Positions 1-5,988 of a DNA stretch of 5,988 bases are shown one piece after another. The first letter of the stretch is position 1, and each line of letters starts with the position of its first letter. The position numbers and the translations under genes were made by a program. Source of the stretch: a virus (Duplodnaviria > Heunggongvirae > Uroviricota > Caudoviricetes); the IMG/VR virus record IMGVR_UViG_2534681774_000011, positions 1 to 5,988 of that record, one strand, 5' to 3'. The notes under the pieces were generated by a model that saw only the letters and a list, made by a program, of their open reading frames with translations, searched no databases and was not told the DNA's origin.

Positions 1-1
1 C

Positions 2-154
2 GCATCACGCGTCGCGCAAATCATGCACATCAATATGCTGCATGAGCGTAGCTGCGAACTTTCAAACCTCTATTCATCCGCTGTTTTCAGCTATCTGGCG
101 GATGATCTGCGCGAGCTTCAGCAGCTCATCCAGCAGCAAAACAAACTCCATTAA
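2..154 (+). CDS. 3' end of an upstream gene entering from beyond the window (hypothetical protein, C-terminus ...LADDLRELQQLIQQQNKLH)
   Basis: Reading frame +2 is open from the window edge to TAA at 152-154 and translates to a protein-like sequence (ASRVAQIMHINMLHERSCELSNLYSSAVFSYLADDLRELQQLIQQQNKLH). It is co-oriented with the downstream operon. The competing +3 frame ORF (42-230) is serine-rich low complexity. Frame choice is unresolved without a homology search. Confidence 0.35.
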   Translation, partial: ASRVAQIMHINMLHERSCELSNLYSSAVFSYLADDLRELQQLIQQQNKLH

Positions 155-226
155 TTCCTGTTCCGGGCCTTTCCTGCACCTTGCGGCGGGAGGCCTTCGC
201 ACATCTGTAACAAGAGGATTGCCGCA

Positions 227-592
227 ATGATTCTCGCCAACGACTTTCTTGAATACCTGCTCAACACAGAACGTGATCTTGCCGCTCGCGTGCGTGAACG
301 TTATGACATGTACCTGAAATCCCTGCCTGTACCGCAGCTCGCTGACGGAAAGATTGTTATTGATGGTCGCTACATGATTGACAGCCACGAGGGAAATTAC
401 AGGCTTTACCGCATTGAAGGTGGCACCCCGTCCGTTATTGGCATTTACCAGCGCCCATCCTCTGCAATCGTCGATGTGATTGCCGACAGCATCCGCATCA
501 CACATCGCCATGCCGACACAGAAGACACCGTGCTGGAAATTCAGCGGCTGGCTACAGTCTGCCGCGACACCCTGAATGGCATAACGAAGTAA
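227..592 (+). CDS. hypothetical small protein of the early/replication operon, 121 aa, function unknown
   Basis: ATG at 227 preceded by AGAGGA about 13 nt upstream. Stop TAA 590-592 lies 6 nt before the next ATG (599), giving tight operon spacing with the gpA-like gene. The translation has no recognisable motif. The antisense ORF 74-1063 is judged spurious. Confidence 0.6.
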   Translation: MILANDFLEYLLNTERDLAARVRERYDMYLKSLPVPQLADGKIVIDGRYMIDSHEGNYRLYRIEGGTPSVIGIYQRPSSAIVDVIADSIRITHRHADTEDTVLEIQRLATVCRDTLNGITK

Positions 593-598
593 ATCACT

Positions 599-1060
599 AT
601 GACGGCAGAGTACATCAGGGACTGGCAGCAACCGCGCCACGCAGTGGGGCGTGAAGGAACGGGGATCCCCGCTCCTGAATCCGCGCTTTCCTCCTGGCTG
701 GATGCCTACCGGGCAGAGAACGAGCGCTGCCAGGAAATGGCTGATGCGGCGTTCTCCGCCACGCCGCTGGGCAACCTGATTAATAAAAGCCTGGACGCAC
801 AGGAAAAACAGGACAAAACCATCACACTGGCAGGAGACGCCAGAAAGCAGGCACGCGGCGCGGTGGATGAAGCCATGGCCTCGCTGCGCCTGCTGCCATC
901 CTATCTGCGCGATCCGCTTATTCGCCACCTCTCCTTCCTGCGCAAAAAACAGGAATCGACCGCCAGAAAGGCAAAAAGAGCTGGCAGGCTGAACGCTACG
1001 CGCGCGGAACCCTGCGCAAAATATTCGAACGTCTGGACCGCACCGACGGGCGCTGGCTGA
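599..1060 (+). CDS. probable N-terminal segment of the gpA-like replication initiator, in frame +2 (out of frame with the main ORF); alternatively a separate small gene
   Basis: ATG 599 follows the previous stop by 6 nt. The translation is protein-like up to about residue 125 (...LRLLPSYLRDPLIRHLSFLRKKQESTARKAK) and then turns low-complexity (RAGRLNATRAEPCAKYSNVWTAPTGAG). Exactly there, frame +1 becomes protein-like and continues into the HUH initiator ORF. Frame +1 is open from 871 to 1105 without any ATG/GTG/TTG. Confidence 0.5.
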   Translation: MTAEYIRDWQQPRHAVGREGTGIPAPESALSSWLDAYRAENERCQEMADAAFSATPLGNLINKSLDAQEKQDKTITLAGDARKQARGAVDEAMASLRLLPSYLRDPLIRHLSFLRKKQESTARKAKRAGRLNATRAEPCAKYSNVWTAPTGAG

Positions 1061-1104
1061 CACCGGGTTATCGCTCCCTTGCCGGACGCGAACGCCTGGA
1101 TGAT

Positions 1105-3420
1105 TTGCTTTACCTGCCGCAGCTCAACAAGCACCAGATACAGACGCTGGCCACCATGACGGCGGCGATGTTCAGCAGCACCTTCGAAACACTCTGCGAT
1201 GGCTTTGGTGCCAGAGATGGCGAACTGACCATGGATGTAACGCTGAAGGCGTATCGGATGCTGGCCCGTATCGCATTACGCCTGCACATCATGCCGCCAC
1301 ATTACGACGCACTGACAACAGACAAAGACCGGAGGAACGATCCGGACACGGAACTGTTACCGGGCGCAATCCTTCGCCTGACCTGTGCGGAATGGTGGAA
1401 ACGCAAACTGTGGCTGTTACGTTGCGAGTGGAGAGAAGAACAACTCCGCGCCGCCTGTCTGGTTTCCAGAAAAACATCACCCTATCTGAGCCAGGACGCG
1501 TTAAGCGAGTTTCGCGCACAGCGCGAGAAAACACGCGATTTCCTGAAAAGTTTCATGCTGGAAAATGAAGACGGGTTCACGATTGATCTCGAGACAGTGT
1601 ATTACGCGGGAGTAAGTAACCCGGTTCACCGTAAGGCAGAAATGATGGCCACCATGAAGGGACTGGAACTTCTGGCCGAAGCCCGTGGCGACAGAGCGGT
1701 GTTTCTGACTGTCACCTGCCCGTCAAAATACCACGCAACAACGGAGAACGGTCATCCGAACCCCAAATGGAACGGGGCCACCATGCGCGACTCCAGCGAT
1801 TACCTGGTTAACACGTTTTTTGCGGCGGTCCGCAAGAAACTGAACCGCGACGGCCTGCGCTGGTATGGCATCCGCACGGTGGAGCCTCACCATGACGGAA
1901 CCGTGCACTGGCATATGATGGTCTTTGCCCATCCGGAAGAAATCGACACCATTGTGTCCCACACCCGCGATATTGCCATTCAGGAAGATCGTCACGAGCT
2001 GGGCGATGATATTACTCCGCGCTTTAAGGCGGAGTATGTAGACGGCTCAAAAGGCACGCCAACCAGCTACATCGCCACCTACATCGGAAAGAACCTGGAC
2101 AGCCGCGCCGTGGATGGCATCGACCCGAAAACGGGCAAGCCACGCGTTGACCACGAAACAGGAAAATCAATGGCCGAGAGCGTGGAGCGCGCCATCGGCT
2201 GGGCGCGCCTTCACCGGGTCCGCCAGTTCCAGTTCTTTGGCATCCCCTCCCGTCAGGTGTGGCGTGAACTCCGCCGCCTTGCCAGCCAGATGGCACGCAA
2301 CCCGGAAGGCCCGCAACGGCTGAAGGATGACGCAATGGATGCGGTTCTTGCTGCCGCTGATGCCGGATGTTTTGCCACCTACATAGAGAAACAGGGCGGC
2401 GTACTTGTTCCACGCAAAGACTACCTGATTCGCACCGCCTACGACCTCGCCGATGAGCTGAACGATTACGGCGAACAGAGCGTACAGATTTACGGGATCT
2501 GGTCACCACTCATCGGGGAATCCTCCCGTGTGTGCACGCATCCGGATAACTGGAAGCTGGTAAGACGCAAACCGGAAGCGGAAGACAGCGCCCGCGAAAA
2601 TGGTTTTGACCTTCAGGGCGGCCCTGCCGCCCCTTGGACTCGTGGCAATAACTGTCCCCGTGTACAGGAAACGGACAACAACGGGACAGAACAGTCGGAA
2701 GAACGGCCAGCACCGTGGCCGCAGCTCCCTGACGGCGTTGAAGTGAACGAATGGATGCGCTCACTGAAACGGCACGAACGCCGGGCGCTGATGCGTTCGC
2801 TTCGTGACAAACAGGCAAAAAACAGCAGTGATGAAATGCAGAGCTGGACACAGAGCCGCAAACAGCAGCGGCCTTTGCCTGATAACCACGAATTACTCGC
2901 TAAAGAATGGCGGAAGTCTGCCGAATCTCTCGGCCTGCATATCGGTGAACAGCAGATGCAGCACCTGTTACGGGGCGGCAGTCTGTACGTTGACGGCAGC
3001 ATCATTGCACCGCAGGGATTTGAAATTGTACGCAAACCGGATACCCGCCCGGACAGTCGAATCACGCAGCTCTGGCAGCACCTGAGCCGTAATCACGGCG
3101 TAAGCAGCACGGAGATCCGCCATAACCCGGTCGCCAGCTATCTGGCACAGCTGGGGGCATCAGACCCCGAAGCCGCCGCACGCCTGGCATCCGCACTTCA
3201 GCAGGATCAGAACACCATGAAAACACCCGTTACCGTGCTTTCTGACATGCTGCGCGCCATCCGCGACGCAGAGCACGCACAGAGAATCAGTGAAACCACT
3301 GAACGCGCCAGCCGCAAAGCAGACCTGCTGCAGGGTGGCCTGACCAGTGGAAACAAAAAACAGACAGAAACGGGATCCACAAATCCCGTAAATGAGCAAA
3401 AAACGCGCCGCGATATATGA
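1105..3420 (+). CDS. phage P2 gpA-family rolling-circle replication initiation endonuclease (HUH nickase); major in-frame portion, likely N-terminally incomplete as an ORF
   Basis: 771-codon ORF. Contains the HUH-type metal-binding motif VEPHHDGTVHWHMMVF (nt about 1885-1930) and paired catalytic tyrosines Y-IAT-Y-IGKN (TAC 2068-2070 and 2080-2082), characteristic of P2 A-type initiators. The ORF-track start at 1105 is TTG with no convincing SD. Coding-like sequence continues upstream in the same frame to the stop at 868-870. Confidence 0.85.
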   Translation: MLYLPQLNKHQIQTLATMTAAMFSSTFETLCDGFGARDGELTMDVTLKAYRMLARIALRLHIMPPHYDALTTDKDRRNDPDTELLPGAILRLTCAEWWKRKLWLLRCEWREEQLRAACLVSRKTSPYLSQDALSEFRAQREKTRDFLKSFMLENEDGFTIDLETVYYAGVSNPVHRKAEMMATMKGLELLAEARGDRAVFLTVTCPSKYHATTENGHPNPKWNGATMRDSSDYLVNTFFAAVRKKLNRDGLRWYGIRTVEPHHDGTVHWHMMVFAHPEEIDTIVSHTRDIAIQEDRHELGDDITPRFKAEYVDGSKGTPTSYIATYIGKNLDSRAVDGIDPKTGKPRVDHETGKSMAESVERAIGWARLHRVRQFQFFGIPSRQVWRELRRLASQMARNPEGPQRLKDDAMDAVLAAADAGCFATYIEKQGGVLVPRKDYLIRTAYDLADELNDYGEQSVQIYGIWSPLIGESSRVCTHPDNWKLVRRKPEAEDSARENGFDLQGGPAAPWTRGNNCPRVQETDNNGTEQSEERPAPWPQLPDGVEVNEWMRSLKRHERRALMRSLRDKQAKNSSDEMQSWTQSRKQQRPLPDNHELLAKEWRKSAESLGLHIGEQQMQHLLRGGSLYVDGSIIAPQGFEIVRKPDTRPDSRITQLWQHLSRNHGVSSTEIRHNPVASYLAQLGASDPEAAARLASALQQDQNTMKTPVTVLSDMLRAIRDAEHAQRISETTERASRKADLLQGGLTSGNKKQTETGSTNPVNEQKTRRDI
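3368..3392. repeat. copy 1 of a 25-bp repeat containing a 7-bp-arm palindrome (AAACGGGAT-N6-ATCCCGTAAA); candidate centromere/operator or origin element
   Basis: aaACGGGATccacaaATCCCGTaaa. Arms ACGGGAT and ATCCCGT are perfect reverse complements separated by 6 nt. It lies inside the last 50 nt of the gpA-like ORF. Confidence 0.55.
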
Positions 3421-3496
3421 AGCGCGCACAAAACAGGCAAAAACGGGATTTCAGAATCCCGTAAACGATTAATTAATCAACATAAGGAAAAGCGAC
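3421..3496 (+). promoter_or_regulatory. putative promoter/operator region of the parM-parR operon
   Basis: AT-rich 76-bp intergenic stretch (..cgattaattaatcaacataaggaaaagcgac) with SD AAGGA at 3484-3488 and palindrome copy 2 overlapping the likely promoter. In known ParMRC loci the ParR-bound repeats flank the par promoter. No precise -35/-10 could be assigned with confidence. Confidence 0.35.
3441..3465. repeat. copy 2 of the same 25-bp palindrome-containing repeat, in the intergenic region upstream of parM
   Basis: aaACGGGATttcagaATCCCGTaaa. Arms and flanks are identical to copy 1 and only the 6-nt spacer differs. It is 73 bp downstream of copy 1 and about 30 bp upstream of the parM ribosome-binding site. 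Confidence 0.55.
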
Positions 3497-4456
3497 ATGA
3501 AAATTTGTATCGACGACGGCTCCACCAACATCAAGCTGGCATGGACTGAGAACGGCGAACGCCGCAACGCCATCAGCCCGAACAGCTTCAAGTCGGAATG
3601 GTCTGCGCCGTTCGGTGGCACGCATCCCGCGAACTACATGCTTGATGGCGTGCGCTATGGCTTTGATCCGGTCAGCGATCGCTTTGTCCAGACGACCGAC
3701 ACGCAATACCAGTACAGCGATGTGAATGTAATCGCCATTCACCACGCGCTGGTCAAATCAGGCATCACACCACAGGAGGTGGATGTGGTTGTCACCCTGC
3801 CACTGAGCGAGTATTTCGACACAAACGCACAGCCGGACATGGCCAACATCAACCGCAAAAAAGCGAACGTCATGCGCCCGGTGGAGTACCAGAACGGTGA
3901 GGCATTCACTATCCGTAACGTGCGGGTTATGCCTGAATCCATTCCGGCAGGCTTTAAGGCACTGGCTGACATGAGTCCGTTTGAATCCCTGCTGATTGTG
4001 GATTTGGGCGGAACCACGCTGGATGTGGCAAAGGTTCAGGGACAACTGGCAGGTATCAGCCAGGTGTTTTGCGATCCACACGTAGGTGTTTCACTGATGG
4101 CCGATGCCGTGCTGTCGGTGATGGCCACTAACGGTATGCGCACCAGTCACCACATCGCCAATACCATTATTGAACATCGCCATGATGAAGCCTGGCTGCG
4201 CCAGCACATCCACAATGACGCGCATTACGCCAGCCTGATGGCGGTTATTCGTGAAAAGGAAGAAACACTGAAACAACGCGTGATCCGCGCGCTGGCGGGT
4301 TTTTCGGGTTACGGGCGGGTGATGGTTGTCGGTGGCGGGGCGGAGATTGTGGCACCCGCTATCCGCGAAGCCTGCGGAGTTAATGCGACTTTCATCGCGG
4401 ACGGGGTGCCACAGTTTGCTCTGGTTAATGGGCTGTACGCAATGGACAAGGAGTAA
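3497..4456 (+). CDS. parM: ParM/StbA-family actin-like segregation ATPase (type II partition)
   Basis: 319 aa. The N-terminus MKICIDDGSTNIKLAW...ISPNSFKSEW...YQYSDVNVIAIHHAL...VDVVVTLPL closely parallels plasmid R1 ParM as recalled (MLVFIDDGSTNIKLQW...ISPNSFKREW...WQYSDVNVVAVHHAL...). Length matches ParM (about 320 aa). Actin-fold phosphate motifs DDGSTN and VDLGGTT are present. SD AAGGA lies 8 nt upstream of ATG 3497. Confidence 0.9.
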   Translation: MKICIDDGSTNIKLAWTENGERRNAISPNSFKSEWSAPFGGTHPANYMLDGVRYGFDPVSDRFVQTTDTQYQYSDVNVIAIHHALVKSGITPQEVDVVVTLPLSEYFDTNAQPDMANINRKKANVMRPVEYQNGEAFTIRNVRVMPESIPAGFKALADMSPFESLLIVDLGGTTLDVAKVQGQLAGISQVFCDPHVGVSLMADAVLSVMATNGMRTSHHIANTIIEHRHDEAWLRQHIHNDAHYASLMAVIREKEETLKQRVIRALAGFSGYGRVMVVGGGAEIVAPAIREACGVNATFIADGVPQFALVNGLYAMDKE

Positions 4457-4460
4457 GCCA

Positions 4461-4772
4461 ATGACGACACCAACCAGACGGATAAGTTTCTATCTGAAGC
4501 CCGCCGCCGTCAAGAACGAAGGCGAAGCATGCGCCTGGCTGGACAGCCTTACACCAGAAGCCCGCAAAAGTGGTCAACGCGTGGCTTTTCTGGCCGGGCT
4601 GGCACTACTGAAAATGAATCCGGCAGAGGCTTACCGACTGGCTGCATGGGCTGATGATGAGGCGTTATCAGTGACACAAACCAGGACAGAACGCCCCGCG
4701 TCACAGCCAGTATCAGCCGCACAGATAACCAGTCAGATGGCCGGAAATATCCGGGCGTTATTTCCCGAATAA
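4461..4772 (+). CDS. parR: ParR/StbB-like centromere-binding adaptor of the type II partition system
   Basis: 104 aa from ATG 4461, with SD AAGGAG at 4448-4453, 4 nt after the parM stop. The N-terminal region RRISFYLKPAAV...LDSLTPEARKSGQRVAFLAGLALL resembles R1 ParR as recalled (RRTIAFKLNPDV...LDSIPQGERSRLNRAALTAGLALY). The ORF-track start at 4326 is an upstream in-frame extension overlapping parM and is not used. Confidence 0.75.
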   Translation: MTTPTRRISFYLKPAAVKNEGEACAWLDSLTPEARKSGQRVAFLAGLALLKMNPAEAYRLAAWADDEALSVTQTRTERPASQPVSAAQITSQMAGNIRALFPE

Positions 4773-4777
4773 CACAA

Positions 4778-4801
4778 CATCAGGGCGCATCCGCCCTGAT
4801 G
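4778..4801 (+). terminator. perfect 10-bp-stem/4-nt-loop GC-rich hairpin immediately after parR; possible terminator or module-boundary structure (no U-tract)
   Basis: CATCAGGGCG-catc-CGCCCTGATG begins 6 nt after the parR stop. It is followed by ACTTTAACCC rather than a T-run, so it is not a canonical intrinsic terminator. Composition shifts to lower GC downstream. Confidence 0.3.
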
Positions 4802-4835
4802 ACTTTAACCCGGGAGCATAAACAAGGGGGACACA

Positions 4836-5168
4836 ATGCAACACATTGACAGAGAAAAAGCGCAGCGACTGATTGAGCGGATGGAAGCGCTGGCGAAAGA
4901 AGAAAATGTCAACATCCAAAAAATAGCTGAATGTGGCCAGATAGTTCTTCGTCGTGAAAAAGACCTCAAACAACTGATGTCTGGCGAAACCAGCAAAACA
5001 TGGACTTCAGGTGAGGAGACGATTTATTGCAGCTTCTGCAATAAATCCCAGTACGAAGTCACAAAGGTGATTGCTGGACCGTCTGTTTACATCTGCAATG
5101 AGTGCGTGGATTTGTGCAATGAAATTATCAGGAGAGAAGTGACAGACAAAAAGGGAAAAAACGCATGA
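4836..5168 (+). CDS. small protein with a C-terminal ClpX-type C4 zinc-binding domain (zf-C4_ClpX-like), standalone and lacking an AAA+ module
   Basis: 110 aa. SD GGGGGA lies 5-6 nt before ATG 4836. The C-terminus ...[38 protein letters not shown] nearly matches the ClpX N-domain as recalled ([39 protein letters not shown]), with the four Zn-ligand cysteines CSFC...CNEC. The N-terminal 70 aa are predicted helical and charged. Confidence 0.8.
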
Positions 5169-5500
5169 ACAGAAAACAAAAACAAGAGTTGAAATACTTC
5201 TTACGTAAAGAAATTGCCAGGCTTGAAGATGCAGAATCACAATCATCAGAAATTCCGTTCGGAATGGATATCAACGACGCCCGTATACTCCAGGCATACC
5301 GCATAGCTCAGGCTGCACTACAGGCAAAACCGTCAGATGGACTGGTTAGAGCAGTACGTTTCTATGAACTGGTAAAGCGTGAGAATCCGCCAGTCGAAAC
5401 CGGAGCATGGAAAGACGCTGTTGACTGGGTGCTCAAAGAGGCTTGCCATGTTGTAAATATTGGTATCAAGGGAGGGGGATATGGCAACCAACAACCGTAA
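5165..5500 (+). CDS. hypothetical protein, 111 aa, translationally coupled to the ClpX-ZBD-like gene
   Basis: ATG 5165 overlaps the upstream TGA (5166-5168) in an ATGA arrangement. The translation is protein-like and no motif was recognised. Confidence 0.65.
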
Positions 5501-5675
5501 AGCAAAGATTCTGTTAGTTCGCAGAAACGATCCAGGCGTATGGCAGTGGGTGAGACTCAGCAACCGACGAATTGGGTTGATGAAATATTACGGGATGATG
5601 GATTGCGGTTTTTGCAAAAAGCCCAGCGCGGCGCAAAACCGCTGGAAAAACCACTTTCGCATTAAAGGAGAGTGA
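5481..5675 (+). CDS. hypothetical small basic protein, 64 aa
   Basis: ATG 5481 is preceded by a strong SD AAGGGAGGGGG (5468-5478) and overlaps the 3' end of the preceding ORF by 20 nt. The protein is lysine/arginine-rich ([23 protein letters not shown]...). The ORF-track start at 5460 is rejected in favour of the SD-backed ATG. Confidence 0.5.
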   Translation: MATNNRKAKILLVRRNDPGVWQWVRLSNRRIGLMKYYGMMDCGFCKKPSAAQNRWKNHFRIKGE

Positions 5676-5676
5676 G

Positions 5677-5895
5677 GTGCCTACACTATTCAGGAAAAAC
5701 TATCCGCGAAAGAGTAGAGCAATAGAATTTCTGTTTCTCATTCTGTTTATCGTGTTGATGATACCGATATCCCCGCTAATTTTTATCTGGGCAATCGGGA
5801 AAATAATTGAGCCAGTTATTGAATTGTATAACGACGTGGTATGGGCGTCGTTCAACACATTGCACAATAAAATTAATCCGTATAAGGAAAACTGA
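5677..5895 (+). CDS. hypothetical small membrane protein, 72 aa, with one long hydrophobic helix
   Basis: GTG 5677 lies 1 nt after the upstream TGA, with SD AAAGGAG (5664-5670) 6 nt upstream. The hydrophobic segment AIEFLFLILFIVLMIPISPLIFIWAIG is flanked by basic residues. The region is markedly AT-rich. The antisense ORF 5700-5969 is considered spurious. Confidence 0.5.
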   Translation: MPTLFRKNYPRKSRAIEFLFLILFIVLMIPISPLIFIWAIGKIIEPVIELYNDVVWASFNTLHNKINPYKEN

Positions 5896-5896
5896 T

Positions 5897-5988
5897 ATGG
5901 CAACGTTGACAAAAAAAGAACAGGCATGGTTGAACGAATTACAGGACGTTCTTGATCGCTGTCCATCACCGAAAAAAATTGGTTTTTA
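5897..5988 (+). CDS. 5' end of a further gene running off the window (MATLTKKEQAWLNELQDVLDRCPSPKKIGF...), function unknown
   Basis: ATG 5897 lies 1 nt after the preceding TGA (5893-5895) with SD AAGGA (5884-5888). The frame is open to the window edge. Only 30 codons are visible. Confidence 0.4.
   Translation, partial: MATLTKKEQAWLNELQDVLDRCPSPKKIGF

What the first reader, a model, noticed from the sequence alone, without database searches (positions are those of the whole stretch)
4836..5988. Translationally coupled string of five small genes in the post-A cargo position, with a stepwise drop in GC
Seen in sequence: five + strand ORFs are chained by overlapping or near-abutting stop/start signals, each with its own SD (ATGA overlap at 5165; ATG 5481 inside the previous ORF's last 20 nt; GTG 5677 one nt after TGA; ATG 5897 one nt after TGA). 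Base composition becomes progressively more AT-rich than the gpA/parM region, which suggests separately acquired cargo. Only the first product has a recognisable domain (ClpX-type zinc ribbon); the others include a basic 64-aa protein and a single-TM 72-aa protein. Established knowledge: in P2-like phages the locus downstream of replication gene A (where P2 carries old and tin) is a documented hotspot for variable anti-phage and anti-host cargo. Inference: this cassette is a candidate uncharacterised accessory system, possibly a proteolysis-targeting factor coupled to a membrane effector.
Basis: partly seen in the sequence, partly recalled or inferred. Interest (0 to 1): 0.7.

Follow-up and report, generated by a model that had tools for sequence, protein, structure and literature searches.

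The report
Mosaic small-gene cargo in P2-like prophage
The five tightly packed small genes are real, but they are a patchwork of independently swapped accessory genes in an already known variable slot of a P2-family prophage, not one coordinated system; the only gene with a testable function is a free-standing copy of the host ClpX protease's docking domain.

Summary
The ORF chain and its stop/start junctions are exactly as described. The element is a P88-like (Xuanwuvirus, P2-family) E. coli prophage. The string lies in the gpA–gpQ hotspot already catalogued by Rousset et al. 2022, whose tables list 'StbA + Plasmid_stab_B + zf-C4_ClpX + hypothetical…'. The genes are not one system. g1 (ClpX zinc ribbon) and a g2-type gene travel together behind parMR. 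The g3–g4 block (window 5489–5892) is a precise insertion about 93% identical to the exo-xis/ea region of Stx phages such as 933W. Sibling prophages carry nothing or a Mom-like gene at that site. Only 6 of 5,426 complete E. coli genomes have all five genes. g4 (DUF4014) has at least 13 upstream and 8 downstream neighbour families. The tight junctions are conserved SD-stop-start linkers that coincide with the recombination joints. GC drops abruptly after parR (0.55 to 0.44) rather than stepwise. No defence-model hit and no own promoter were found. The most interesting part is g1: its zinc ribbon is 78% identical to host ClpX residues 13–52, with saturated synonymous sites. It may act as a decoy for ClpX adaptors, which is untested.

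The parts
4461..4772 (+). parR/StbB-like partition gene. This is the last backbone gene, and the variable region starts after its stop codon.
   Evidence: PF10784 E = 1.5e-24 and phrog_2515. Homology to Shae_phiSM, 520873 and Chuche ends at 4772-4775.
4778..4801 (+). GC-rich 10-bp hairpin in the parR-g1 spacer with no T-tract on the + strand. It could be an attenuator or an RNA-stability element, and it is part of a shared 5' leader.
   Evidence: Fold -22.9 kcal/mol, z = -3.2. It is flagged as terminator-like only on the - strand. P884B11 shares the leader up to 4827, ahead of a different gene.
4836..5168 (+). g1, 110 aa: an N-terminal helical hairpin (about residues 6-48), a flexible linker, and a stand-alone ClpX-type C4 zinc ribbon (residues 62-102; Cys 65, 68, 87, 90).
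   Evidence: PF06689 64.5 bits against a cut-off of 27. Matches PDB 1OVX and 2DS5. 31/40 aa identical to E. coli ClpX, with 14/40 third codon positions identical. Family alignment. Structure model.
5165..5500 (+). g2, 111 aa: an 'ea-type' N-terminal leader (…[12 protein letters not shown]) plus a highly conserved ~50-aa C-terminal module (GLV[KR]AVRFYE…WVLKEAC). It is always the gene after g1, with an ATGA overlap.
   Evidence: phrog_26213 and phrog_660. 569 homologues, none with a Pfam domain. Alignment A3. -4 overlap in 29/29 loci. Four-helix model with pLDDT 68.6 and no fold match.
5474..5490 (+). Recombination joint and linker at the g2/g3 boundary (SD GGGAGGGGG plus ATG).
   Evidence: P88 homology ends at 5474 and sibling prophages end at 5483-5488. 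933W homology starts at 5490.
5481..5675 (+). g3, 64 aa, basic, from a narrow Escherichia/Salmonella prophage family. In lambdoid phages it lies after ea22.
   Evidence: phrog_1380 E = 4e-38. 34 homologues, including Stx phages PA16 and Min27, with occasional Ead_Ea22 or DUF4014 fusions. 92.8% nt identity to 933W.
5489..5892 (+). The g3-g4 block: a discrete insertion relative to g1-g2-g5 sibling prophages. The same site holds a Mom-like gene in others.
   Evidence: L006 joins window 5488 directly to 5893. L007 and L001 carry XF1762/Mom-like there.
5664..5683 (+). Conserved inter-module linker AAAGGAGAGTGAGGTGCCTA (…KGE-stop, SD, start of g4).
   Evidence: It matches two places in 933W, flanking L0068. 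The same linker precedes g4 behind several different upstream sequences.
5677..5895 (+). g4, 72 aa, DUF4014: a basic N-terminus, one long hydrophobic segment and a ~28-aa C-terminal tail. It is a promiscuous module of lambdoid ea regions.
   Evidence: PF13198 E = 4e-26 and phrog_1832. Its DNA is part of a g3+g4 query that matched 1,360 of 5,426 genomes, up to 7 places per genome, with 311 places on plasmids. At least 13 upstream and 8 downstream neighbour families.
5893..5908 (+). Recombination joint and linker at the g4/g5 boundary (TGATATGGCAACGTTG).
   Evidence: Sibling homology resumes at 5893 and 933W homology ends at 5908. The gap after g4 is 1 nt in 59/60 loci.
5897..5988 (+). g5, first 30 codons of an 87-aa gene (phrog_1714), function unknown. 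It is common to most g1-g2 prophages and to many lambdoid phages.
   Evidence: phrog_1714 E = 7e-51 for the full gene. It lies directly downstream of g4 in 34/72 lambdoid loci.

Best explanation
Window 4836-5988 is the tail of the rightward early gene string (A, parM, parR and onward) of a P88-like P2-family prophage. It lies in the known gpA-gpQ variable slot.

The slot is filled with single-gene modules from the accessory-gene pool that enterobacterial temperate phages share. The same families sit in the exo-xis/'ea' region of Stx and lambdoid phages and on a ~96-kb plasmid. The modules are joined by short conserved linkers, each holding the Shine-Dalgarno site of the next gene, a stop codon and a start codon. 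These linkers do two things:
- They allow coupled translation along a string that has no detectable promoter of its own (inferred).
- They coincide exactly with the recombination joints, so they probably supply the microhomology at which modules are swapped (the joints are shown; the mechanism is inferred).

The present arrangement arose when a lambdoid g3-g4 block was inserted between g2 and g5 of a g1-g2-g5 prophage.

The genes most likely act separately, as early-expressed modulators of the host:
- g1 is a free-standing copy of the ClpX N-terminal zinc-binding domain. It most likely dimerises and presents the same hydrophobic docking patch as ClpX, so it would compete for adaptors (SspB, RssB) and N-domain-dependent substrates and damp adaptor-mediated ClpXP degradation. 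This is inferred, with in-vitro precedent for free ZBD.
- g4 is a small single-pass inner-membrane protein.
- g2, g3 and g5 have no assignable activity.
For: Backbone and slot:
- 97% identity to phage P88 over window 1-5474.
- gpA, ParM and StbB domains, with the portal gene downstream in L004.
- The hotspot is published, and zf-C4_ClpX arrangements are listed in Table S5A of PMC9122126.

Mosaicism:
- Joints lie at 4772-4827, 5474-5490 and 5893-5908.
- Arrangements seen include g1-g2; g1-g2-g5; g1-g2-Mom-like-g5; g1-g2-L0066-g6; and others.
- Genome counts out of 5,426: parMR 1,307; g1+g2N 187; the g3+g4 query 1,360; all five 6.
- A contiguous g3-g4-g5 string was found in 0 of 67 lambdoid loci.

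Linkers:
- The gap after g4 is 1 nt in 59/60 loci across 8 different downstream families.
- AAAGGAGAGTGAnGTG precedes g4 behind different genes, and is duplicated in 933W.

Shared pool:
- 933W has the g3 homologue, L0068, g4 and L0066 between ea22 and xis.
- P884B11 has an Ea22-like gene directly after parR.

Expression:
- No promoter-like site ahead of g1. The upstream hairpin lacks a T-tract. Terminator-like hairpins come only after g6.

g1:
- 31/40 aa identical to ClpX residues 13-52, with third codon positions at 14/40.
- The zinc ribbon stays host-like while the N-half drifts to 36-50% identity.
- F67 and I97 correspond to the F16/I46 docking patch (PMC7804408).
- Free ZBD added in trans inhibits RssB-mediated sigma-S turnover in vitro (PMC7226468).
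- dN/dS is 0.35-0.49.
Against: - No function was tested, and no paper on any of the five families was found.
- The co-occurrence counts come from redundant, phylogenetically non-independent E. coli prophages, and from the best 80 of 285 g4 loci.
- The promoter scan is a simple consensus scan and could miss a real promoter.
- The constant g1-g2 pairing (29/29) shows that at least these two genes are not independent.
- Among 20 close g1 alleles, some zinc-ribbon positions vary (73, 76, 78, 85, 94, 97), so conservation is good but not absolute.
- AlphaFold modelled the zinc ribbon poorly.
- High identity to ClpX could reflect only the fold's own constraints.
Confidence: 0.72

Rival explanations
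1. One reading: the five genes are one co-functioning accessory or defence system in which the ClpX-type protein targets something for proteolysis and the membrane protein is the effector.
For: Same strand, tight or overlapping junctions, location in a hotspot known for defence genes, and a low-GC block.
Against: - g1 and g4 co-occur in only 6 of 5,426 genomes. Their query segments matched 187 (g1+g2N) and 1,360 (g3+g4) genomes respectively.
- P88 and most relatives have g1-g2 without g3-g4.
- g4 sits in lambdoid phages without g1 in 79/79 loci.
- g3-g4 is a clean insertion.
- No PADLOC hit and no own promoter.
Confidence: 0.05
2. g1 and g2 form a two-gene functional unit. For example, the helical g2 protein could bind the g1 N-terminal hairpin, with g1 tethering it to ClpX or ClpX partners. 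The rest is unrelated cargo.
For: - g1 is followed by a g2-type gene with the same ATGA overlap in 29/29 loci, and is always 63 nt after parR in 28/29.
- Both products are small and helical.
Against: - The C-terminal half of the g2-type gene varies behind g1 (104/111-aa versus 135-aa forms). 13 g1 loci lack a g2 match covering at least 50%.
- The g2 family (569 proteins) is mostly found without g1, in lambdoid contexts.
- Linkage may simply reflect recent common descent of these prophages.
Confidence: 0.2
3. g1 is an adaptor or targeting factor rather than a decoy. Its zinc ribbon would pair with a ClpX N-domain or occupy its place on the hexamer, and its N-terminal hairpin would deliver a specific phage or host protein for degradation.
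For: - The architecture (binding domain, flexible linker, ClpX-interacting module) resembles that of adaptors.
- The ClpX ZBD is a dimerisation domain (PMC7226468).
- The N-half is under purifying selection (dN/dS 0.49).
Against: - No target is known.
- ZBD dimers in ClpX form within the hexamer, and exchange with a free domain is unproven.
- The only experimental precedent for free ZBD is inhibition.
Confidence: 0.15
4. g4 (DUF4014), alone or with g3 or g5, is a small membrane toxin or superinfection-exclusion protein expressed from the prophage.
For: It is a single-pass membrane protein with a basic N-terminus. It is very widespread, with multiple copies in E. coli prophages. Small membrane proteins of prophages often exclude other phages (general knowledge).
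Against: - It lies in early lytic operons (between ea22 and xis in 933W) and has no promoter of its own.
- Its neighbours vary.
- No PADLOC hit and no literature.
Confidence: 0.12
5. The string is decaying, non-functional DNA in a defective prophage.
For: gpA in the window carries a 1-nt deletion. Fusions and truncations of these genes are frequent in databases.
Against: - All five ORFs are intact with SD sites.
- They are conserved at 92-99% aa across many phages, including isolated viable phages P88 and PhiR44_2.
- g1 dN/dS is below 0.5.
Confidence: 0.05

Closest known systems
gpA-gpQ (old/tin) diversity hotspot of P2-like phages (Rousset et al. 2022, PMC9122126; Odegrip et al. 2006 as cited there)
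   Same: Same position, between replication gene A and portal gene Q next to cos. It is highly variable between relatives. About a quarter of P2-like prophages carry the parMR-type partition genes, and arrangements containing zf-C4_ClpX are listed in their Table S5A.
   Different: The validated occupants there are defence systems with their own promoters. This string has no defence-model hit and no own promoter, consists of lambdoid-type small early genes, and was not reported as tested.
exo-xis / 'ea' region of lambdoid and Stx phages (933W L0066-L0068; lambda ea22, ea8.5, orf61, orf63, orf60a, orf73)
   Same: g3, g4 and the start of g5 are about 93% identical at the DNA level to 933W between ea22 and xis. 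Both are tightly packed, non-essential small early genes with mosaic exchange at gene boundaries. The region is described as influencing the lysis-lysogeny decision (PMC3824215 and PMC8614690).
   Different: Here the genes sit in a P2-family phage downstream of A and parMR, not in a pL operon. The studied exo-xis genes (orf60a, orf61, orf63, orf73, ea22) are not the ones present here, and nothing is published on the g3, g4 or g5 families.
N-terminal zinc-binding domain (ZBD) of ClpX (PDB 1OVX, 2DS5-2DS8)
   Same: C4 zinc ribbon with identical Cys spacing, 78% identity over 40 residues, and the F16/I46 docking patch retained. Isolated ZBD dimerises and inhibits RssB-mediated sigma-S degradation in trans.
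   Different: There is no AAA+ module, and the domain is C-terminal to a novel ~55-aa helical hairpin. It is phage-encoded, and its activity has not been tested.
Anti-adaptors IraD, IraM and IraP, which stabilise sigma-S by blocking RssB (mentioned in PMC7226468)
   Same: The proposed outcome is the same: reduced adaptor-mediated delivery to ClpXP.
   Different: Ira proteins bind the adaptor RssB through unrelated folds. g1 would compete by imitating the protease's own docking domain and would not be specific to RssB.

Membership tests
ClpX N-terminal zinc-binding domain (Pfam PF06689, zf-C4_ClpX) | Profile match above the curated threshold | tested here: met
   64.5 bits against a gathering score of 27, E = 8.2e-18, covering profile positions 2-38 of 39.
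ClpX N-terminal zinc-binding domain (Pfam PF06689, zf-C4_ClpX) | Four zinc-ligand cysteines, CxxC…CxxC | tested here: met
   C65, C68, C87 and C90 align with ClpX C15, C18, C37 and C40 (counting Met1), and are invariant in alignments A1 and A2.
ClpX N-terminal zinc-binding domain (Pfam PF06689, zf-C4_ClpX) | Hydrophobic adaptor/substrate docking patch (F16, I46 in published numbering) | tested here: met
   F67 and I97 are conserved in A1, and the patch is defined in PMC7804408. I97 varies in at least one of 20 close alleles.
ClpX ATPase (TIGR00382 / NF003745 equivalog) | AAA+ unfoldase module; full-length score above cut-off | tested here: not met
   50.2 bits against a cut-off of 370.75. Only residues 60-106 match model positions 6-52, and the protein is 110 aa.
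ClpX ZBD-type competitor of adaptor docking (function) | Binds the SspB XB tail or RssB, dimerises, and inhibits adaptor-dependent ClpXP degradation | not testable with these tools
   Only the precedent for the isolated E. coli ZBD is available (PMC7226468).
Cargo of the P2-like gpA-gpQ hotspot | Located between replication gene A and portal gene Q | tested here: met
   Order in L004: gpA, parM, parR, g1 to g6, then portal on the opposite strand.
Cargo of the P2-like gpA-gpQ hotspot | Content varies between otherwise near-identical relatives | tested here: met
   Homology to five Xuanwuvirus genomes stops at 4772-4827, with different genes beyond. More than 10 arrangements were seen behind parR.
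Anti-phage defence system | Match to a known or candidate defence protein model | tested here: not met
   PADLOC gave no hit except a g2 match at E = 0.026, which is noise level.
Anti-phage defence system | Components co-inherited as a unit | tested here: not met
   All five genes are present in 6 of 5,426 genomes, and the g1 and g4 distributions are almost disjoint.
Anti-phage defence system | Protects against phage infection, expressed in the lysogen | not testable with these tools
   The only evidence is that the consensus scan found no promoter-like site ahead of g1.
Lambdoid exo-xis/'ea' accessory gene pool | Homologues located in the early-left region between exo/ea22 and xis/int of lambdoid phages | tested here: met
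   The g3 homologue and g4 lie in 933W between ea22 and xis at 92.7-92.8% nt identity, and that homology runs 12 nt into g5, where 933W has L0066 instead. g5 itself lies directly downstream of g4 in 34/72 lambdoid loci. g2- and g6-type leaders occur in EaA/DUF551 proteins. g1 was not found there.
Lambdoid exo-xis/'ea' accessory gene pool | Modular exchange at gene boundaries through conserved linkers | tested here: met
   Joints coincide with SD-stop-start linkers. The linker is duplicated in 933W, and the 1-nt gap occurs in 59/60 loci.
Pfam DUF4014 (g4) | Profile match above the curated threshold | tested here: met
   91.6 bits against a cut-off of 23.2, full length 2-72 of 72.

The most novel reading that the evidence does not exclude
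g1, possibly together with the g2-type gene that always follows it, is a phage-encoded mimic of the host ClpX N-terminal docking domain. Made early in lytic growth, it would soak up ClpX adaptors and N-domain-dependent substrates (SspB, RssB/sigma-S, replication or transposition proteins). That would reprogram host ClpXP proteolysis to protect phage proteins or alter the host stress response. This would be a previously undescribed way for a phage to interfere with a host protease. The stand-alone ClpX zinc ribbons with other partner domains seen in unrelated viral contigs (L050, L052, L055) would make it a wider class.
Probability: 0.3. Interest if true: 0.6.

Novelty: new member of a known kind. 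Interest (0 to 1): 0.3.

Why it matters
As a whole the finding is ordinary. It is one rare combination of shuffled accessory genes in a hotspot that has already been mapped, and it should not be pursued as a five-gene system.

Two points have some value:
- It is a clean worked example of lambdoid 'ea' genes moving into a P2-family phage, and apparently onto a large plasmid, through SD-stop-start linkers. This explains why such strings look translationally coupled without being functional units, and it is a useful caution for guilt-by-association screens in hotspots.
- g1 offers a cheap, well-defined experiment. If a free ClpX docking domain made by a phage really titrates adaptors, it would add a new type of phage interference with host proteolysis and a ready-made tool for perturbing adaptor-dependent ClpXP degradation.

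Tried and rejected
- **PADLOC scan of all five proteins:** nothing usable.
- **NCBIfam:** only the ClpX N-terminal match, far below cut-off.
- **Rfam scan of the whole window:** no RNA family.
- **AlphaFold model of g1:** the N-terminal helices are confident but the zinc ribbon is poorly modelled (pLDDT about 50-60). It was not used for fold search.
- **AlphaFold model of g2:** moderate quality. Foldseek against PDB and BFVD gave no match at E <= 0.001, so the top hits (TssK, PA2107 and others) were rejected as generic helical-bundle noise.
- **Literature searches:** nothing relevant for DUF4014, 'ClpX C4-type zinc finger'/PF06689, or a phage-encoded ClpX decoy or anti-adaptor.
- **Recent capture of host clpX by the phage:** rejected, because synonymous sites are saturated.
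- **g1 as part of the partition module:** rejected, because the g1+g2N query matched only 87 to 187 genomes against 1,307 for parMR.
- **The parR-g1 hairpin as a + strand terminator:** not supported, because it has no T-tract.
- **First check for an indel in gpA at 1020-1130:** found none. The frameshift is at about 955.
Full report
**Observation**

- The junctions are exactly as stated: ATGA at 5165-5168; the g3 ATG at 5481, 20 nt before the g2 stop and behind GGGAGGGGG; the g4 GTG at 5677, one base after a TGA; and the g5 ATG at 5897, one base after a TGA.
- All five products match PHROG families (E from 1.5e-14 to 1.5e-58), and RefSeq calls the same CDS in near-identical genomes, so they are genes and not chance ORFs.
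- g1 carries a ClpX C4 zinc ribbon (PF06689, E = 8e-18).
- GC does not fall stepwise. The backbone genes are 0.55-0.57, and g1 to g5 are 0.435, 0.455, 0.477, 0.379 and 0.391.

**What the element is**

Window 1-5474 is 97% identical to Escherichia phage P88 (Xuanwuvirus, Peduoviridae). In the complete genome of strain FDAARGOS_1059, the string continues with the rest of g5 (87 aa) and a sixth 86-aa gene. Terminator-like hairpins, the cos region and the portal gene on the opposite strand follow.

So this is the gpA-gpQ interval, which Rousset et al. 2022 (PMC9122126) surveyed in 18,150 E. coli loci and described as a diversity hotspot. They note that about a quarter of P2-like prophages carry partition genes there. 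Their Table S5A lists arrangements such as 'StbA + Plasmid_stab_B + zf-C4_ClpX + hypothetical + …', including WP_001163782, the g1 allele of sibling prophages. I found no statement that this arrangement was tested.

**Variability**

Five other Xuanwuvirus genomes lose homology to the window between 4772 and 4827 and carry different content after parR:
- an Ead/Ea22-like gene in P884B11, which shares the 5' leader up to 4827;
- a reverse-strand DUF4760 gene;
- DUF3800 plus small ORFs;
- a lone 89-aa ORF.

**Not one system**

The breakpoints are sharp.
- P88 homology ends at 5474, and sibling prophages end at 5483-5488.
- Stx phage 933W is 92.7-92.8% identical over 5490-5683 and 5664-5908.
- The siblings resume at 5893.
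- Strain 1450 joins g2 directly to g5. AVS0756 and phage PhiR44_2 have a Mom-like 'XF1762' gene in the same site.
- Hence g3-g4 (5489-5892) is a discrete insertion of lambdoid origin.

In 933W the homologues lie between ea22 and xis, in the exo-xis/'ea' region.

Among 136 loci from IMG/VR and reference records, more than 40 gene orders were seen.

| Sequence searched | Complete E. coli genomes with a match (of 5,426) |
|---|---|
| parMR | 1,307 |
| g1 + g2 N-terminal part | 187 (87 covering at least 80%) |
| g3 + g4 query, any part | 1,360 (up to 7 places per genome; 311 places on plasmids) |
| g3 + g4 adjacent | 114 |
| Whole string | 6 |

- None of 79 lambdoid g4 loci has g1 or a P2 backbone, and a contiguous g3-g4-g5 string occurs in 0 of 67 evaluable loci.
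- g4 has at least 13 upstream and 8 downstream neighbour families.
- A ~96-kb plasmid carries the same pool (Ead/Ea22-like, DUF4014, g5-type, DUF551) as another tight string.

**Why the junctions look coupled**

- The gap after g4 is 1 nt in 59 of 60 loci, whichever gene follows.
- The sequence AAAGGAGAGTGAnGTG, which encodes '…KGE-stop' and contains the next gene's SD, precedes g4 behind several unrelated upstream sequences.
- That sequence occurs twice in 933W, flanking L0068.
- Members of the g2 family also end in '…IKGE/IKGD'.
- Downstream genes often begin with similar codons (MATLTKKE, MALTKKQ, MTELTKEQ).
- The recombination joints fall in these linkers.

My reading is that the linkers are boundary sequences. 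They allow translation to pass along a promoter-less string, and they supply microhomology for module exchange. Short conserved boundary sequences in lambdoid early regions are described in the older literature; that statement is from my own knowledge and was not checked here. The tight packing is therefore a property of the gene pool, not evidence of a functional unit.

**Expression**

- The consensus scan found no promoter-like site between parR and g1. It found only two sites in 3.7 kb, against 3.9 expected by chance.
- The spacer holds a strong hairpin (4778-4801, -22.9 kcal/mol, z = -3.2) without a T-tract.
- This suggests read-through from the early operon, as for exo-xis genes, which are transcribed early (PMC8614690).
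- It argues weakly against a lysogen-expressed defence function.
- PADLOC found nothing.

**g1**

- Its zinc ribbon matches the solved ClpX N-domain structures (1OVX and 2DS5, E about 1e-19).
- It is 31/40 identical to E. coli ClpX residues 13-52, yet only 14/40 third codon positions agree. This means an old acquisition kept by selection, not a recent capture.
- In divergent relatives from Escherichia, Salmonella and one viral contig, the N-terminal half falls to 36-50% identity while the ribbon stays host-like. This includes F67 and I97, which correspond to the F16/I46 patch where lambda O, SspB, RssB and trigger factor dock.
- Among 20 close alleles, dN/dS is 0.49 for the N-half and 0.35 for the ribbon, with a few variable ribbon positions.
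- The model shows a confident helical hairpin (residues 6-48), a disordered linker and a poorly modelled ribbon.
- Published work shows that the isolated ClpX ZBD dimerises and, added in trans, inhibits RssB-mediated sigma-S degradation (PMC7226468).
- I therefore propose that g1 acts as a decoy for ClpX adaptors and N-domain-dependent substrates. The alternative is an adaptor that pairs with ClpX. Neither is tested.
- I found no paper on phage-encoded stand-alone ClpX ribbons. Other viral contigs encode such ribbons joined to different domains.

**g2 to g5**

- g2 always follows g1 with the ATGA overlap (29/29). It belongs to a family of 569 enterobacterial prophage proteins built from an 'ea-type' leader (…ALASLEAEP), a variable linker and a very conserved ~50-aa C-terminal module. 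The window's copy is the minimal form.
- The g2 model is a four-helix protein (pLDDT 68.6) with no significant structural neighbour.
- g3 is a narrow family of 34 proteins, occasionally fused to Ead_Ea22 or DUF4014 fragments.
- g4 is a small protein with one long hydrophobic segment. The PHROG label 'released from the phage upon host infection' is an unverified annotation.
- g5 (phrog_1714) has no lead.

**Verdict**

- The 'cargo in a hotspot' reading is right but already published.
- The 'single accessory system' reading is not supported.
- What remains of interest is the stand-alone ClpX docking domain. It is a plausible and cheaply testable candidate for phage interference with ClpXP.

**Limits**

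- All co-occurrence figures come from redundant E. coli prophages.
- The promoter scan is crude.
- No function was tested.

Noticed in passing
window ~955 (gpA, 599-3420): The window's gpA has a 1-nt deletion relative to FDAARGOS_1059 and P88. The 940-aa gene is split into ORF 599-1060 (153 aa) and ORF 1105-3420 (771 aa, TTG start). This is either a defective prophage or a sequencing error. Phage 520873 also has gpA annotated in three pieces.
   Followed up: partly
L003 (933W) 4172-4191 and 4389-4408; window 5664-5683: The 20-nt SD-stop-start linker AAAGGAGAGTGAnGTGCC is present twice in 933W, flanking the extra ORF L0068. This looks like the footprint of a module insertion. RefSeq does not annotate the g3 homologue upstream of L0068 in 933W, although the Min27 and PA16 records do.
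   Followed up: partly
L007 4283-4774; L001 10215-10706: Sibling prophages and phage PhiR44_2 carry an 'XF1762 family' gene in the g3-g4 site. It matches Mom-like DNA-modification proteins (phrog_1384, E = 4e-42; Pfam Mom is below threshold), so it may be an anti-restriction function in the same slot.
   Followed up: partly
proteins P0133 (191 aa, 143 contigs) and P0166 (112 aa): Recombinant fusions are common. One is a ParM N-terminal fragment fused to the g2 C-terminal module. Another is a g2 C-module fused to g3, consistent with a frame change in the 20-nt g2/g3 overlap.
   Followed up: no
L142 (plasmid NZ_CP069885.1, 95.8 kb) 1-7232: A ~96-kb E. coli plasmid carries a long tight string of the same gene pool (Ead/Ea22-like, DUF4014, g5-type, DUF551 fragments). 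The g3+g4 query hit 311 places on plasmids. These are possibly phage-plasmids, which was not checked.
   Followed up: partly
window 5481-5525 (g3 N-terminus): The g3 N-terminus [12 protein letters not shown] resembles the N-terminal ClpX recognition signal of lambda O (TNTAKIL, recalled from memory). g3 is not evolutionarily linked to g1, so this is probably coincidence and it is untested.
   Followed up: no
L050, L052, L055 (IMG/VR contigs): Other viral contigs encode stand-alone ClpX-type zinc ribbons with different partner regions (153, 121 and 86 aa). Several 60-87-kb contigs encode full-length ClpX. Many 136-aa stand-alone ribbon proteins exist in metagenomes.
   Followed up: no
L004 10472-10732 (g6) and L003 4913-5536 (933W EaA/DUF551): The sixth gene of the string shares its first ~40 residues almost exactly with the N-terminus of the 933W EaA/DUF551 protein, and g2 has the same type of leader. 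These 'leaders' look like a shared N-terminal module of many ea-region proteins.
   Followed up: partly
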